Positions 5,293 to 20,310 of a stretch of 37,783 nucleotides of DNA are shown here, one piece after another. The notes beneath the pieces were generated by a model that was not told the origin of the DNA, did no database searches, and was given only the letters and a program-made list of their open reading frames with translations. The translations under genes were made by a program, and so were the position numbers. This DNA comes from a virus (lineage: Duplodnaviria; Heunggongvirae; Uroviricota; Caudoviricetes). The DNA lies in the IMG/VR virus record IMGVR_UViG_3300029190_000005; one strand, given 5' to 3'. How positions within the stretch are numbered: the stretch's first letter is position 1; every line of letters starts with the position of its first letter.

Positions 5293-5307
5293 TTACCGTT
5301 GAGGTAA
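5293..5307. promoter_or_regulatory. Operator-like palindrome TTACCGTTGAGGTAA (OL-like site 1)
   Basis: Perfect TTACC-N5-GGTAA at the head of the leftward operon, downstream of the repressor gene. Confidence 0.6.
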
Positions 5308-5354
5308 TAATTATGCGTATATGGTTTGATGTCAATAGATATGAGTTAAAAAAA

Positions 5355-5369
5355 TTACCCGTTAGGTAA
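5355..5369. promoter_or_regulatory. Operator-like palindrome TTACCCGTTAGGTAA (OL-like site 2)
   Basis: Perfect TTACC-N5-GGTAA; centre is 62 bp from the centre of the 5293-5307 site. Confidence 0.6.
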
Positions 5370-5426: not shown

Positions 5427-6011
5427 TTATTGTTTGTTTTTTTCGTTCTGGTTGATGACAAATTCAATGTAACTTTCGATCTTTGCTTTCTCGGTTTCGG
5501 GTAACAATGCGTAGCGCGAGCGATCATAGTTGATGGTCGCAGGGTCGTGCGGGTGAATCAGTAATTCATAGCCGTGACGCCCGAATGCGGATGCAACATT
5601 CTCCAGGGTGGAAATGGAAACGCTGACCTCATTGTTTAACAGGCGGCTGATTGTCACCTGGGCTACGCCGGATGCGCGGTGAAGTTTTCCCTGTGTTGAA
5701 AGGTCGCGGCTTTCGCTCATCCAGCGTTCCAGGTTGTGAGCCGCCAGCTGGCCAATGTCGCTTGGGCCGACAGGCTGAAAACCTTCCTGAGAAAGCGAGC
5801 GATCGATATCAAGCCAGTTACGGGGTTTATTGGCGGCAGCTTCAATTTTTCGCGCAACCTGATCGCCGATAACCTTCTTACCAAGAGCCCAGCGGTTTAC
5901 CAGATTTGCCTGAGTTCCAAGTTTTTCAGCCATCCGCGTCTGAACACCATTGAATTCACGGTCGATCAAGTCGTTGAGATTTTGCCTGCGGACGTCCTGG
6001 ATACTTTTCAT
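5427..6011 (-). CDS. Prophage repressor (CI-like position), HTH protein without recognisable S24 peptidase domain
   Basis: 194 aa. N-terminal HTH-like segment (RMAEKLGTQANLVNRWALGKKVIGDQVARKIE) and a second HTH-like segment (LHRASGVAQVTISRLLNNE); no Ala-Gly cleavage site or Ser/Lys dyad seen; divergent from the Cro-like gene across an operator cluster. Confidence 0.75.
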   Translation of the reverse strand: MKSIQDVRRQNLNDLIDREFNGVQTRMAEKLGTQANLVNRWALGKKVIGDQVARKIEAAANKPRNWLDIDRSLSQEGFQPVGPSDIGQLAAHNLERWMSESRDLSTQGKLHRASGVAQVTISRLLNNEVSVSISTLENVASAFGRHGYELLIHPHDPATINYDRSRYALLPETEKAKIESYIEFVINQNEKNKQ

Positions 6012-6066
6012 TTTCTGGAAAATCGCCTCATATATGAATCAGTAGATGATTCAATTTAAAGCAATA

Positions 6067-6081
6067 TTACCCAACAGGTAA
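6067..6081. promoter_or_regulatory. Operator-like palindrome TTACCCAACAGGTAA (OR-like site)
   Basis: Perfect TTACC-N5-GGTAA in the divergent repressor/cro intergenic region. Confidence 0.65.
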
Positions 6082-6083
6082 AT

Positions 6084-6129
6084 GCACCTCATGGGTAACT
6101 ATCCTTGATTTTTGTTACCTTATGGGTGA
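6084..6129. promoter_or_regulatory. Two degenerate operator-like sites plus candidate rightward promoter
   Basis: GCACCTCATGGGTAA (6084-6098) and TTACCTTATGGGTGA (6115-6129) each keep one perfect half-site; candidate -35 TTGTTA (6112-6117) and -10 TATTAT (6135-6140) lie upstream of the Cro-like start at 6166. Confidence 0.5.
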
Positions 6130-6165
6130 ATATTTATTATCTGAAATAAATATCAGGCAATAGCT

Positions 6166-6396
6166 ATGAGCGATAACGGACATTTCGATTTCAAAAAGCA
6201 CTGGCTTGCACTTACTCCGGATGAGCGTGAAGCCTTCGCACAGGAAGCCGGAACGACGAGTCACTATATCCAGACTCACTTAACAGGTAAGCGCAAAATG
6301 CCAGGTAAAGTATTGATGAATGGGCTTTTTAAAGCCTGTAAAACAAGACAATGGCTGCGCTCAAAAGCAGAACTGGCATACTTCTTCTACTCATGA
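6166..6396 (+). CDS. Cro-like small regulator
   Basis: 76-aa ORF divergent from the repressor, immediately right of the operator cluster; weak HTH-like features only. Confidence 0.55.
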   Translation: MSDNGHFDFKKHWLALTPDEREAFAQEAGTTSHYIQTHLTGKRKMPGKVLMNGLFKACKTRQWLRSKAELAYFFYS

Positions 6397-6418
6397 TATC
6401 CAGCTACAACCCTCTGTA

Positions 6419-6440
6419 GACCGCCACCCGGCGGTCTTTT
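6419..6440 (+). terminator. Rho-independent terminator after the Cro-like gene (tR1-like)
   Basis: Hairpin GACCGCC (6419-6425) / GGCGGTC (6430-6436) followed by TTTT (6437-6440). Confidence 0.5.
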
Positions 6441-6451
6441 CATATCTATTC

Positions 6452-6466
6452 GTACCTCAAAGGTAA
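6452..6466. promoter_or_regulatory. Operator-like site GTACCTCAAAGGTAA (one mismatch)
   Basis: Sits just after the tR1-like terminator and before the next gene. Confidence 0.4.
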
Positions 6467-6546
6467 TAAAAAACCAAATATGGTTGATATTTTTTTTGTG
6501 TCAGCACAAAATGACCGTAATCCCAATACTAATAACAGGGCTTACC

Positions 6547-8397: not shown

Positions 8398-8412
8398 TTA
8401 CCTGGAAGGTAA
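8398..8412. promoter_or_regulatory. Operator-like palindrome TTACCTGGAAGGTAA
   Basis: Perfect TTACC-N5-GGTAA in the intergenic region after the P-like gene. Confidence 0.55.
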
Positions 8413-8459
8413 TAAAATGTTCTAATCTCTATTGATTTCATGTCTTATGTGGTTTTTAA

Positions 8460-8474
8460 TTACCTAAGGGGTAA
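8460..8474. promoter_or_regulatory. Operator-like palindrome TTACCTAAGGGGTAA overlapping an RBS
   Basis: Perfect site; centre 62 bp from the 8398-8412 site; overlaps the SD (AAGGGG) of the gene starting at 8478. Confidence 0.55.
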
Positions 8475-12951: not shown

Positions 12952-12966
12952 TTACCACAACGGTAA
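12952..12966. promoter_or_regulatory. Operator-like palindrome TTACCACAACGGTAA before small terminase
   Basis: Perfect TTACC-N5-GGTAA, 9 nt before the proposed terS ATG. Confidence 0.55.
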
Positions 12967-12974
12967 CAATTACC

Positions 12975-13580
12975 ATGGTGGTTATGATGCCTGCTGAACC
13001 TAAAACCTATAAACGCAAATCAACGCAATTTAAGCCACTAACCGCAATGCAGGAGGCTTATTGCCAGTCATACATCAAAACGCCTGAAAACCAGACTCAG
13101 GCAGCGATTAACGCAGGATTCTCCCCAAATACAGCGGCAGTTAAAGCCAGTGTCATGATGCGCGATGAACGCATTCAAAAACGGATTGCCGAGTTGATGG
13201 AGGAGCGCAACAAACGAATGCGCGTCAGTGCCGATTACGTTCTCATGCGCCTGGTGGAGATCGACCAGATGGACGTGATTGATATCCTCAATGACGATGG
13301 GAGCCTTAAGCCAATCCGCGAGTGGCCGAAAATCTGGCGCACTACGCTTAGTGGCTTTGATCTGTCATCGACCATCATGAACATGAACGAGGATTCGATA
13401 GAGACAATTCTCAAAAAAATTAAATGGCCTGACAAGGTGAAGAACCTCGAACTGATTGGTAAGCACGTCGACGTCAATGCATTCAAAGAACGCCTGGATG
13501 TTAATGTGAATGTGACAATTGCTGATCGCATAGCGGCAGCCAGGAAGCGACTCAAAGAACGTCAGGATGGTAATCAGTGA
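12975..13580 (+). CDS. Terminase small subunit
   Basis: About 200 aa directly upstream of and overlapping the large terminase; basic N-terminus with HTH-like segment (TAMQEAYCQSYIKTPENQTQAAINAGFS). Exact start uncertain (ATG at 12975, 12984 or 12987). Confidence 0.65.
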   Translation: MVVMMPAEPKTYKRKSTQFKPLTAMQEAYCQSYIKTPENQTQAAINAGFSPNTAAVKASVMMRDERIQKRIAELMEERNKRMRVSADYVLMRLVEIDQMDVIDILNDDGSLKPIREWPKIWRTTLSGFDLSSTIMNMNEDSIETILKKIKWPDKVKNLELIGKHVDVNAFKERLDVNVNVTIADRIAAARKRLKERQDGNQ

Positions 13581-15688: not shown

Positions 15689-15703
15689 TTACCTTCAAGG
15701 TAA
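15689..15703. promoter_or_regulatory. Operator-like palindrome TTACCTTCAAGGTAA upstream of the moron
   Basis: Perfect TTACC-N5-GGTAA, 33 nt upstream of the moron ATG. Confidence 0.55.
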
Positions 15704-15743: not shown

Positions 15744-15907
15744 GAACTGGAAGCAATGAGTTATGCCTTCCGTGGCTGTACTGGTTTACAGCATGAAGTC
15801 ATCGCAATGGCGTCCTGCTGTAAAAAGGGCGGTGATAGTCCTTCAAGGGAAACAGTCACCGCCAATCCCCTGGAACTTCTGGCATCACGGTCCTTAGGCG
15901 TGATTCT

Positions 15908-15983
15908 GGCGTGGCATGCAGGATTCGAACCTGCGACCAACCGCTTAGAAGGCGGTTGCTCTGTCCAACTGAGCTAATGCCAC
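15908..15983 (-). tRNA. tRNA-Arg (anticodon UCU)
   Basis: Minus-strand 76-nt sequence GTGGCATTAGCTCAGTTGGACAGAGCAACCGCCTTCTAAGCGGTTGGTCGCAGGTTCGAATCCTGCATGCCACGCCA folds by hand into a cloverleaf: 7-bp acceptor stem, D-arm GCTC/GAGC, anticodon stem ACCGC/GCGGT with loop CTTCTAA, T-arm GCAGG-TTCGAAT-CCTGC, encoded CCA. Confidence 0.85.
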
Positions 15984-19323: not shown

Positions 19324-20310
19324 ATGTCTGTTAAAGGCTTAACTGCGCTAACGCTGGCTGACTGGGGTAAGCGCGTCGATCCAAATGGGAAAGTCGATAA
19401 GATTATCGAGCTTCTCAATCAAACTAACCCAATTCTTCAGGATATGCCTTTTGTTGAAGGAAACCTTCCTACCGGACACCGAACCACCATTCGTTCTGGT
19501 TTACCTTCTGCTACCTGGCGTTTGCTGAACTATGGCGTACAGCCAAGCAAATCAACCACAGTGCAGGTCACCGATTCCATTGGCATGCTGGAAACCTATG
19601 CTGAAGTCGATAAGTCTCTGGCTGATCTGAACGGTAATACTGCCGAATTCCGTCTGTCTGAAGACCGAGCATTTATTGAAGCGATGAATCAGGCGATGGC
19701 GCAGACACTGTTTTACGGTGATTCCAGCGTTAACCCTCAGCAGTTTATGGGACTGTCCTCCCGCTATTCCAGCCTGTCTGCGGGTAATGCTCAGAACATC
19801 ATTGATGCTGGTGGCACGGGTACAGATAACACTTCAATCTGGTTAGTGGTGTGGGGCGAAAACACCGTGCATGGCATCTTCCCGAAAGGACAGAAGGCTG
19901 GCATTCAGATGGAAGATAAAGGCCAGGTGACACTGGAAGATGCTAAAGGCGGCAAGTACGAAGGTTATCGTACCCATTATAAGTGGGACAACGGGCTGAC
20001 ATTACGTGACTGGCGCTATGTAGTTCGTATCGCAAACATTGATGTCAGTAATCTTGACGCTCCTTCTACTGCCGCGAATATCGCAAAACTGATGATTCGT
20101 GCCCTTCATCGAATCCCAAATCGTGGGATGGGACGTCCTGTTTTCTACATGAACAGAACCATTAACGAAGTGCTTGACCTGCAATCTCTGGAGAAGAGTT
20201 CTCTGGCGATCAGCGTGAAAGAGACAGAAGGCGAATGGTGGACAGCACTTCGTGGTGTGCCGATTCGTGAAACTGACGCACTTCTGGAAACAGAAGCCCG
20301 CGTGGTGTAA
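19324..20310 (+). CDS. Major capsid protein
   Basis: 328 aa following the scaffold gene; followed by a partial hairpin (20327-20346); size and position fit a major capsid protein. Confidence 0.75.
   Translation: MSVKGLTALTLADWGKRVDPNGKVDKIIELLNQTNPILQDMPFVEGNLPTGHRTTIRSGLPSATWRLLNYGVQPSKSTTVQVTDSIGMLETYAEVDKSLADLNGNTAEFRLSEDRAFIEAMNQAMAQTLFYGDSSVNPQQFMGLSSRYSSLSAGNAQNIIDAGGTGTDNTSIWLVVWGENTVHGIFPKGQKAGIQMEDKGQVTLEDAKGGKYEGYRTHYKWDNGLTLRDWRYVVRIANIDVSNLDAPSTAANIAKLMIRALHRIPNRGMGRPVFYMNRTINEVLDLQSLEKSSLAISVKETEGEWWTALRGVPIRETDALLETEARVV

What the first reader, a model, noticed from the sequence alone, without database searches (positions are those of the whole stretch)
6067..6140. Tripartite operator cluster between repressor and Cro-like gene
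One perfect and two degenerate sites (6067-6081, 6084-6098, 6115-6129) lie in the 155-bp divergent region; the third overlaps a candidate rightward promoter (-35 TTGTTA, -10 TATTAT). This mirrors OR1-3 graded-affinity logic and supports the palindrome being the immunity operator.
Basis: partly seen in the sequence, partly recalled or inferred. Interest (0 to 1): 0.5.

Follow-up and report, generated by a model that had tools for sequence, protein, structure and literature searches.

The report
Three-site repressor operator at phage switch
The three palindromes between the repressor gene and the Cro-like gene are real, conserved binding sites for the phage's SPC32H-type repressor. They sit on two back-to-back promoters of a phiV10/epsilon15-like prophage, so this is an ordinary immunity switch built differently from the lambda one.

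Summary
The sites 6067-6081 (TTACC-N5-GGTAA, perfect), 6084-6098 (GCACC…GGTAA) and 6115-6129 (TTACC…GGTGA) lie in the 154-bp gap between a leftward repressor gene and a rightward Cro-like gene.

The window is a phiV10/epsilon15-like podophage (Uetakevirus). The same three sites occur in the same register (+17, +30/31 bp) in every relative examined. Their arms are invariant and their 5-bp centres vary freely.

The lambda analogy holds only in part:
- The repressor is a full-length homologue of the tetrameric, non-cleavable SPC32H Rep. The window also encodes its LexA-controlled antirepressor Ant.
- The palindrome is a genome-wide operator: 11 perfect copies, about 0 expected, all at promoters. 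The same consensus is already annotated as 'repressor' binding sites in the epsilon15 record.
Site 3 overlaps the promoter core either way.
- The perfect site 1 lies on the best candidate promoter of the repressor gene itself, which is the reverse of the lambda layout.

This is a new member of a known kind, and interest is modest.

The parts
5427..6011 (-). rep: 194-aa immunity repressor of the SPC32H Rep type. It has an N-terminal DNA-binding HTH, a middle HTH_3-like dimerisation domain and a C-terminal tetramerisation region. It has no S24 peptidase domain.
   Evidence: PDB 5D50_A at E=4e-42 over residues 1-190. Pfam HTH_3 at aa 106-147 and a weak YdaS-like HTH at aa 21-61. It is 100% identical to the phiV10 and ZX5 repressor. 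Overexpression of that ZX5 protein cut lytic-gene transcripts by more than 99.9% (PMC9782041). Domain names follow PMC9986798.
6067..6081 (.). Operator site 1, TTACCCAACAGGTAA, a perfect palindrome. It lies in the spacer and -35 of the candidate leftward rep promoter.
   Evidence: It is perfect in every relative, and all 10 arm columns are invariant.
6084..6098 (.). Operator site 2, GCACCTCATGGGTAA, with a degenerate left arm. It lies between the two -35 hexamers, 17 bp from site 1 and 31 bp from site 3 (centre to centre).
   Evidence: The site sits at +17 in all relatives. The left arm is GCACC or GTACC in the phiV10 clade and perfect in most of the epsilon15 clade. Within-population polymorphisms fall only in its N5 centre.
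6115..6129 (.). Operator site 3, TTACCTTATGGGTGA, with a degenerate right arm. It lies inside the rightward promoter core.
   Evidence: One arm is always TCACC/ACACC-like: the right arm in the phiV10 clade and the left arm in the epsilon15 clade.
6105..6110 (+). Proposed -35 of the rightward promoter (PR), TTGATT.
   Evidence: TTGATTT is invariant in all 10 aligned relatives. It is the top or near-top rightward candidate in all 10 in the PWM scan.
6128..6133 (+). Proposed -10 of PR, GAATAT (AATAAT in the epsilon15 clade), 17 bp after TTGATT. Its first two bases are the last two of site 3.
   Evidence: A6129, A6132 and T6133 (positions 2, 5 and 6 of the hexamer) are invariant. PWM scan.
6112..6140 (+).
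   Evidence: 9/12 and the best PWM score in window, phiV10 and Tyrion. It weakens to TTATTA/TGTTAT in BUCT554 and the Erwinia prophage, and is absent in the epsilon15 clade.
6053..6082 (-). Candidate leftward promoter for rep (PRM-like): -35 TTTACC (6082..6077), a 17/18-bp spacer, and -10 TTAAAT/TAAATT (6059..6053). It is weak and lacks a canonical A at -11 in some relatives.
   Evidence: It is the top or near-top leftward candidate at the same position in all 10 relatives. The columns AATT..A at 6053-6056 and 6059, and GGTAAA at 6077-6082, are invariant. There is no experimental mapping.
6166..6396 (+). Cro-like gene, 76 aa with a predicted HTH.
   Evidence: phrog_35 'transcriptional repressor' at E=5.6e-13. 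AF2 model pLDDT 86.7 with five helices. The Foldseek list is dominated by 434 repressor, YdaS N-terminal domain (TM 0.64-0.66), P22 C2 and C-controller proteins, but all E-values are weak.
6418..6437 (+). Intrinsic terminator after the Cro-like gene.
   Evidence: It is annotated as a terminator at the equivalent place in phiV10.
6452..6466 (.). Further operator, GTACCTCAAAGGTAA (1 mismatch), 17 bp upstream of the next rightward promoter-like site (TTGATA at 6484, 17 bp, CAAAAT ending 6512).
5293..5369 (.). OL: two perfect operators (5293-5307 and 5355-5369), 62 bp apart, bracketing the strong leftward promoter TTGACA (5335..5330), 17 bp, AATTAT (5312..5307).
   Evidence: The same architecture and 62-63 bp spacing occur in all clades. 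The equivalent sites are annotated 'protein_bind repressor' in epsilon15.
35589..35846 (-). ant: 85-aa antirepressor, a homologue of SPC32H Ant.
   Evidence: PDB 5D50_E 'Anti-repressor protein' at E=1.3e-47.
35868..35883 (.). LexA-box-like palindrome CTGTATGTTTATACAG, 22 nt upstream of the ant start codon.
35923..35937 (.). Perfect Rep operator upstream of ant.
   Evidence: The equivalent site is annotated 'repressor' in epsilon15 at 19895-19911.

Best explanation
The cluster is the right-hand operator region of a phiV10/epsilon15-type temperate podophage.

Rep, the 194-aa repressor encoded at 5427-6011, recognises the palindrome aTTACC-N5-GGTAAt through its N-terminal HTH. By homology it acts as a tetramer carrying two palindrome-binding units. 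The three sites lie on two back-to-back promoters:
- Site 3 sits in the spacer and -10 edge of the rightward promoter of the Cro-like gene (TTGATT 6105-6110, 17 bp, GAATAT 6128-6133). Bound Rep there blocks RNA polymerase and keeps the early right operon off.
- Site 1 sits in the spacer and -35 of the weak leftward rep promoter candidate (TTTACC 6082-6077, 17 bp, TTAAAT 6059-6054). Bound Rep there would limit its own synthesis.
- Site 2 lies between the two -35 hexamers. It probably gives cooperative occupancy, either as a tandem pair with site 1 (17 bp) or in helical phase with site 3 (31 bp, about 3 turns).

Induction is not by repressor cleavage. DNA damage removes LexA from the ant promoter (35868-35883), and Ant then takes Rep tetramers off all operators at once.

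Shown here:
- The sites, their conservation and their spacing.
- Homology of Rep and Ant to the SPC32H proteins.
- The genome-wide, promoter-linked distribution of the palindrome.

Inferred:
- That Rep is the protein that binds the sites.
- The promoter positions.
- Autoregulation through site 1.
- Which pairs of sites one tetramer bridges.
For: Phage identity:
- The region is 98-99% identical to phiV10, PAS61 and related phages.

Rep and Ant:
- Rep matches SPC32H Rep (PDB 5D50_A) over its full length at E=4e-42.
- The N-terminal domain is the better-conserved part, and NLVNRW is invariant in it.
- Ant matches 5D50_E at E=1.3e-47, with a CTGT-N8-ACAG box 22 nt upstream.
- Published summaries say Rep binds palindromic DNA as a tetramer and that DNA-binding domain pairs come from different dimers (PMC9638917). 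Its domain order is DBD, dimerisation domain, tetramerisation domain (PMC9986798).
- Overexpressing the identical ZX5 repressor abolished lytic transcription (PMC9782041).

The palindrome:
- The epsilon15 GenBank and RefSeq records annotate seven ATTACC-N5-GGTAAT sites as 'protein_bind: repressor'.
- The window has 11 perfect copies against 0 expected, and essentially all are intergenic or promoter-proximal.

The cluster:
- The three sites are conserved in register in 12 or more relatives whose Rep is only 42-78% identical.
- Arms are invariant and centres vary, and polymorphism avoids the arms.

Promoters:
- TTGATT and the A2/A5/T6 positions of its -10 are invariant.
- The PWM scan finds the same rightward and leftward candidates in all 10 relatives.
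- At PL, the -10 abuts a perfect operator and a second operator lies 62 bp upstream in every clade. This shows the palindrome is used as a promoter-occluding operator elsewhere in the genome.
Against: - No binding or transcript-mapping data could be consulted. The three primary papers (Kropinski 2007; Kim & Ryu 2013; Kim et al. 2016) are not held.
- The leftward -10 has T or C rather than A at position 2 in several relatives, so the rep promoter may lie elsewhere or may need activation.
- A perfect site on the repressor's own promoter and a weaker one on PR looks paradoxical unless cooperativity or looping compensates.
- The epsilon15 annotators did not mark the three equivalent sites in their record.
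Confidence: 0.8

Rival explanations
1. A lambda-like OR1-OR2-OR3 switch. The strongest site(s) would shut PR. Repressor at the middle site would activate the repressor promoter. The weakest site would shut the repressor promoter only at high repressor levels. Cro would use the same sites in reverse order.
For: - There are three sites between divergent repressor and Cro-like genes.
- Degenerate positions are conserved, which fits graded affinity.
- Site 2 would be centred near -44 of the leftward promoter candidate (inference), close to where lambda CI at OR2 sits.
- The Cro-like protein is highly conserved and has an HTH fold.
Against: - Rep has no S24 cleavage domain and belongs to the tetrameric SPC32H Rep family with an Ant antirepressor.
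- Spacings are 17 and 31 bp.
- Only the weaker site 3 lies in the PR core, and the perfect site 1 overlies the leftward promoter candidate, which reverses the lambda order.
- The same operator is used at about 16 places in the genome.
Confidence: 0.12
2. The palindromes are bound mainly by another regulator, with Rep recognising something else. Candidates are the Cro-like protein, another phage HTH protein or a host factor.
For: - Rep binding to these exact sequences was not seen directly in anything I could read.
- The Cro-like protein is at least 61% identical across clades with an invariant putative recognition helix.
- Apart from the arms and promoter hexamers, no other conserved palindrome exists in the gap that could serve as its target.
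Against: - Sites flank rep on both sides and sit at every early promoter and at ant, as expected for the maintenance repressor.
- The epsilon15 curators assign them to the repressor.
- The Rep DNA-binding domain is conserved along with the unchanged operator consensus.
- Distant homologues of the Rep N-terminal domain outside the Enterobacterales lack the motif.
- This rival is compatible with shared use of the sites, as with lambda CI and Cro.
Confidence: 0.05
3. Chance palindromes, or an RNA/DNA hairpin element rather than protein-binding sites.
For: The 76-nt stretch 6060-6135 folds better than shuffles (z = -3.0).
Against: - 0 perfect copies are expected by chance against 11 observed.
- The arms are invariant in sequence and show no compensatory changes, while the centres vary.
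- The sites lie upstream of both transcription starts.
- There is no Rfam match in the region.
- The fold signal is explained by the repeated TTACC/GGTAA arms.
Confidence: 0.01

Closest known systems
Salmonella phage SPC32H Rep/Ant lysogeny switch (PDB 5D4Z, 5D50; Kim & Ryu 2013, Kim et al. 2016)
   Same: - Rep is a full-length homologue (E=4e-42, about 42% identity) and Ant is a close homologue (E=1.3e-47).
- There is a LexA box in front of ant.
- The SPC32H rep/cro gap carries the same three sites at the same spacing.
   Different: - In SPC32H site 2 is perfect and the weak arm of site 3 is on the left (TCACC). Here site 2 has a GCACC arm and site 3 has a weak right arm (GGTGA).
- The Rep C-terminal two-thirds is strongly diverged.
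- I could not read how far the SPC32H papers describe this operator region.
Epsilon15 repressor binding sites as annotated in AY150271.2 / NC_004775.2
   Same: The consensus ATTACC-N5-GGTAAT is identical, and the sites are equivalent at OL, upstream of terS, upstream of the ant homologue gp19 and before the gene after the replication genes.
   Different: The three sites in the epsilon15 rep/gp39 gap (33341, 33358, 33388) are not annotated there. phiV10-type records carry no operator annotation at all.
Phage lambda / P22 OR (OR1-OR2-OR3)
   Same: Three palindromic operators lie between divergent repressor and cro-like genes. The sites are of unequal quality, and there is a terminator after the cro-like gene.
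   Different: - The repressor is non-cleavable, tetrameric and inactivated by an antirepressor.
- Spacing is 17/31 bp.
- One site, not two, lies in the PR core.
- The best site is on the repressor promoter.
- The same operator is used genome-wide rather than only at OL and OR.
Dispersed-operator repressors (P1 C1; mycobacteriophage stoperators) and looping tetramers (LacI, GalR)
   Same: - One repressor controls many scattered promoters.
- Paired sites 62 bp apart bracket promoters, as expected for a protein with two DNA-binding units.
   Different: - The sites here are symmetric and promoter-proximal. They are not asymmetric, orientation-biased sites inside transcription units.
- Looping was not tested.

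Membership tests
SPC32H/epsilon15-type Rep-Ant immunity system (Uetakevirus) | Repressor homologous over its full length to SPC32H Rep (DBD, dimerisation domain, tetramerisation domain) | tested here: met
   5D50_A at E=4e-42 over residues 1-190 of 194. Alignment A1.
SPC32H/epsilon15-type Rep-Ant immunity system (Uetakevirus) | No LexA-like S24 autocleavage domain | tested here: met
   Pfam finds only HTH families.
SPC32H/epsilon15-type Rep-Ant immunity system (Uetakevirus) | Small Ant antirepressor gene preceded by a LexA box | tested here: met
   5D50_E at E=1.3e-47. CTGTATGTTTATACAG at 35868-35883, 22 nt upstream of the ATG.
SPC32H/epsilon15-type Rep-Ant immunity system (Uetakevirus) | Operators of consensus ATTACC-N5-GGTAAT at phage promoters | tested here: met
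   11 perfect and 5 one-mismatch sites. The same consensus is annotated in epsilon15.
SPC32H/epsilon15-type Rep-Ant immunity system (Uetakevirus) | Rep physically binds these sites as a tetramer and is released by Ant | not testable with these tools
   Only second-hand statements were available (PMC9638917, PMC9986798). The primary papers are not held.
Lambda-type OR switch | Three operators between divergent repressor and cro genes | tested here: met
Lambda-type OR switch | Repressor with a C-terminal S24/LexA-like domain, inactivated by RecA-stimulated cleavage | tested here: not met
Lambda-type OR switch | Two adjacent strong sites over PR and a weak third site over PRM, at about 23-24 bp spacing | tested here: not met
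   Spacing is 17 and 31 bp. Only site 3 (imperfect) lies in the PR core, and the perfect site 1 lies over the leftward candidate. The promoter positions are predictions.
Lambda-type OR switch | Positive autoregulation from the middle site, and Cro binding the same sites in the reverse order | not testable with these tools
   This needs reporter and footprint experiments.
Stoperator / P1 C1-type dispersed operators | Many asymmetric sites, often inside transcription units with an orientation bias | tested here: not met
   The sites are palindromic and intergenic or promoter-proximal.

The most novel reading that the evidence does not exclude
The Uetakevirus right operator may be a symmetric, 'inverted' switch. 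The highest-affinity site would clamp the repressor's own weak promoter, giving tight negative autoregulation. A deliberately weakened site, whose weak arm flips sides between clades, would guard the lytic promoter. That weak site would be filled only through tetramer bridging to site 2 (31 bp, in helical phase) or to distant operators. Ant-driven tetramer break-up would then release PR first. In addition, all clades keep one operator specificity although Rep is only 42% identical. Immunity groups would then not be set by operator divergence as they are in lambdoid phages.
Probability: 0.3. Interest if true: 0.5.

Novelty: new member of a known kind. Interest (0 to 1): 0.3.

Why it matters
It gives phiV10-type prophages, which are common in E. 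coli including O157 strains, an explicit operator and promoter map that their database records lack. phiV10 and SPC32H are also used as reporter phages.

It also provides concrete DNA substrates (sites 1+2, 2+3 and 1+2+3, and the 62-bp brackets) for testing how the structurally solved Rep tetramer engages DNA. A 2023 paper still calls that mechanism poorly characterised (PMC9986798).

Biologically this is an ordinary immunity region, so the gain is incremental.

Tried and rejected
- Primary papers. Kropinski 2007 on epsilon15 and the 2013 and 2016 papers on SPC32H are not held. My recollection that the epsilon15 paper gives a consensus like ATTACCWDWWNGGTAAT could not be verified, and a text search for it found nothing.
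- LexA box inside the cluster. There is none; the only CTGT-N8-ACAG matches are at 15776, 20325 and 35868.
- RNA element. There is no Rfam hit in 6012-6165, and the fold z-score of -3.0 is a by-product of the repeated arms.
- A separate conserved Cro operator. No other palindrome is conserved across clades in the gap. CTGA-N8-TCAG at 6141-6156 is conserved only in the phiV10 clade.
- Wider sampling. The IMG/VR scan returned only contigs with a 100% identical repressor. These were useful for polymorphism but not for diversity.
- Distant relatives. Homologues of the Rep N-terminal domain in Hydrogenovibrio, Thiomicrospira and Paraburkholderia have no TTACC-N5-GGTAA sites, so they do not inform this operator.
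- Rep N-terminal domain against the Cro-like protein. The profile comparison is weak (E=0.034) and the recognition helices differ, so shared site use cannot be inferred from sequence.

Full report
**What is in the sequence**

The window region 6012-6165 is a 154-bp gap. It lies between a leftward 194-aa ORF (5427-6011) and a rightward 76-aa ORF (6166-6396). Reading the bases confirms the three sites exactly as reported:
- 6067-6081 is TTACCCAACAGGTAA.
- 6084-6098 is GCACCTCATGGGTAA.
- 6115-6129 is TTACCTTATGGGTGA.

**Is it more than chance**

- TTACC-N5-GGTAA occurs 11 times perfectly in the 37.8-kb window, against 0.00 in 100 shuffles.
- With up to two mismatches there are 36 copies, against 11.0 +/- 3.1 expected.
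- A triple cluster within 70 bp arose in 2 of 1000 Markov simulations.

**What the element is**

The region is 98-99% identical to phiV10, vB_EcoP_PAS61, ZX5 and other Uetakevirus podophages.

The leftward ORF is the phage repressor:
- It is 100% identical to the phiV10 and ZX5 protein. Overexpression of the ZX5 protein cut endolysin and holin transcripts by more than 99.9% (PMC9782041).
- It is a full-length homologue of the Salmonella phage SPC32H repressor, PDB 5D50_A, at E=4e-42.
- Pfam finds only HTH domains and no S24 peptidase.

Published summaries describe SPC32H Rep as having a DNA-binding domain, a dimerisation domain and a tetramerisation domain. They say it binds palindromic DNA as a tetramer and is dismantled by the antirepressor Ant (PMC9638917, PMC9986798).

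The window also encodes Ant (35589-35846, minus strand; 5D50_E at E=1.3e-47). A CTGT-N8-ACAG LexA box lies 22 nt upstream of it, and a perfect Rep palindrome lies just beyond that. The immunity system is therefore of the SPC32H/epsilon15 type, not the lambda CI type.

**The palindrome is a genome-wide operator**

The 11 perfect and 5 one-mismatch copies are essentially all intergenic. They lie at these places:
- On both sides of rep.
- After the Cro-like gene.
- Before the gene that follows the replication genes.
- Before terS.
- Before ant.
- Before the Bro-type gene.

The epsilon15 GenBank and RefSeq records annotate seven ATTACC-N5-GGTAAT sites as 'protein_bind: repressor, lysogeny'. The three equivalent sites in the epsilon15 rep/gp39 gap are not annotated, and phiV10 has no operator features at all.

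From 58 distinct perfect sites the extended consensus is aTTACC-ttWaa-GGTAAt. The central base is A or T in 94% of them.

**Conservation of the three-site cluster**

I compared these relatives: phiV10, Tyrion, BUCT554, Klebsiella BUCT711, SPC32H and epsilon15, plus prophages of Superficieibacter, Erwinia dacicola, Klebsiella, Citrobacter and Scandinavium. Their Rep proteins are 41-78% identical to the window's.
- The cluster is present at the same distance from the rep start, with site 2 at +17 and site 3 at +30/31.
- In the 10-sequence alignment, 25 of the 30 arm columns are invariant and none of the 15 centre columns is.
- Site 1 is perfect everywhere.
- Site 2 is GCACC or GTACC in the phiV10 clade and perfect in most of the epsilon15 clade.
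- Site 3 always has one TCACC/ACACC-type arm, on the right in the phiV10 clade and on the left in the epsilon15 clade.
- Neither weak arm of site 3 is forced by a promoter hexamer, so the weakness itself looks selected.
- Among 80 IMG/VR contigs with an identical Rep there are 16 haplotypes of the gap and 12 variable positions. None touches an arm, and all five inside the cluster lie in the N5 centres.

**Promoters**

Rightward:
- TTGATTT (6105-6111) is invariant in all clades. So are A6129, A6132 and T6133, which are positions 2, 5 and 6 of a -10 hexamer GAATAT (AATAAT in the epsilon15 clade).
- A sigma-70 PWM scan finds this rightward pair in all 10 relatives.
It decays or is absent elsewhere.
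- I therefore favour TTGATT, 17 bp, GAATAT as PR, although it is only 7/12 to consensus here.
- Under either assignment site 3 lies inside the promoter core.

Leftward:
- The only positionally conserved candidate is TTTACC (6082-6077), a 17/18-bp spacer, then TTAAAT/TAAATT (6059-6053).
- Its -35 is the right arm of site 1 plus the conserved following A.
- It is weak, and its -10 lacks the usual A at position 2 in some relatives, so it remains a prediction.

With these assignments the layout is symmetric: site 1 lies in the rep promoter, site 3 lies in PR, and site 2 lies between the two -35 hexamers.

**How it most likely works**

- Rep bound at site 3 occludes PR and keeps the Cro-like gene off.
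- Rep bound at site 1 limits rep transcription.
- Site 2 supplies cooperativity.

Other promoters show how the protein uses paired sites:
- At PL, a strong promoter (TTGACA, 17 bp, AATTAT) has its -10 fused to a perfect operator. A second perfect operator lies 62 bp upstream in every clade.
- The same register recurs at 8398/8460.
- A tandem pair 18 bp apart precedes terS.
- The recurring spacings (17-18, 31 and 62 bp) fit a tetramer with two palindrome-binding units. 31 and 62 bp are close to whole numbers of helical turns. Which pairs are bridged is inference.

Induction follows the SPC32H scheme: loss of LexA leads to Ant, which leads to loss of Rep from all operators.

**The Cro-like gene**

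- It matches phrog_35 'transcriptional repressor' at E=5.6e-13.
- It is at least 61% identical across relatives, with an invariant GTT..YI.TH.T segment.
- It gives a confident five-helix model (pLDDT 86.7).
- Its best structural neighbours are the 434 repressor DNA-binding domain, the YdaS N-terminal domain (TM 0.64-0.66), P22 C2 and C-controller proteins. All the E-values are weak for so small a protein.

'Cro-like' is therefore reasonable. Whether it uses the same sites is unknown. Its recognition helix differs from that of Rep.

**Comparison and verdict**

The lambda OR1-3 analogy fails on repressor type, spacing, the number of sites over PR and the position of the strongest site.

The operator type and the Rep/Ant system are already known from epsilon15 and SPC32H. 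What is added here is the explicit three-site architecture and its conservation, the promoter reassignment, and the map for phiV10-type phages. I rate it a new member of a known kind, with modest interest.

Noticed in passing
window 34255-34437 (minus strand), next to ORF 33514-34251 (minus) and the operator at 34474-34488: Rfam finds a C4 antisense RNA (34255-34342, 78.6 bits) and isrK (34361-34437, 74.7 bits). They lie directly upstream of the Bro-N 'anti-immunity' gene and downstream of a perfect Rep operator. This looks like a P1 immI-like second antirepressor module under Rep control.
   Followed up: no
window 35589-35937: An SPC32H-type ant gene (85 aa) is preceded by a perfect LexA box at 35868-35883 and a perfect Rep operator at 35923-35937. 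Ant is about 88% identical to SPC32H Ant, although Rep is only about 42% identical.
   Followed up: partly
window 5293-5369 and 8398-8474; loci L002-L011: Pairs of perfect operators exactly 62 bp (once 63 bp) apart bracket a promoter. The last T of the -10 is the first base of the proximal operator, and the distal operator ends 19 bp upstream of the -35. This is conserved in all clades at PL and suggests tetramer bridging or looping.
   Followed up: partly
window 12952-12984: A tandem operator pair (12952 perfect, 12970 with one mismatch, 18 bp apart) lies immediately upstream of the likely terS start (ATG 12987). The -35 is poor, so the late operon also carries Rep sites. The phiV10 terS start at base 41 of its record appears to be annotated upstream of these sites.
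   Followed up: no
all relatives (L001-L012): The operator consensus is identical in clades whose repressors are only 42% identical, while the Rep N-terminal domain keeps NLVNRW invariant. Operator specificity does not seem to have diversified between these phages, unlike lambdoid immunity regions.
   Followed up: partly
window 6141-6156: The palindrome CTGAAATAAATATCAG (CTGA-N8-TCAG) lies at about +1 to +16 of the proposed PR transcript. It is conserved only in the phiV10/Tyrion/BUCT554 clade. Its function is unknown; it could be a clade-specific site or a leader hairpin.
   Followed up: no
window 6418-6512: A terminator follows directly after the Cro-like gene. After it come a one-mismatch operator (6452-6466) and a second rightward promoter-like site (TTGATA at 6484, 17 bp, CAAAAT). 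The replication genes may therefore have their own Rep-controlled promoter.
   Followed up: no
window 15910-15983 (minus strand): A tRNA gene is found by Rfam (73.3 bits) in the region between the terminase and head genes. A Rep operator at 15689-15703 nearby has no counterpart in phiV10.
   Followed up: no
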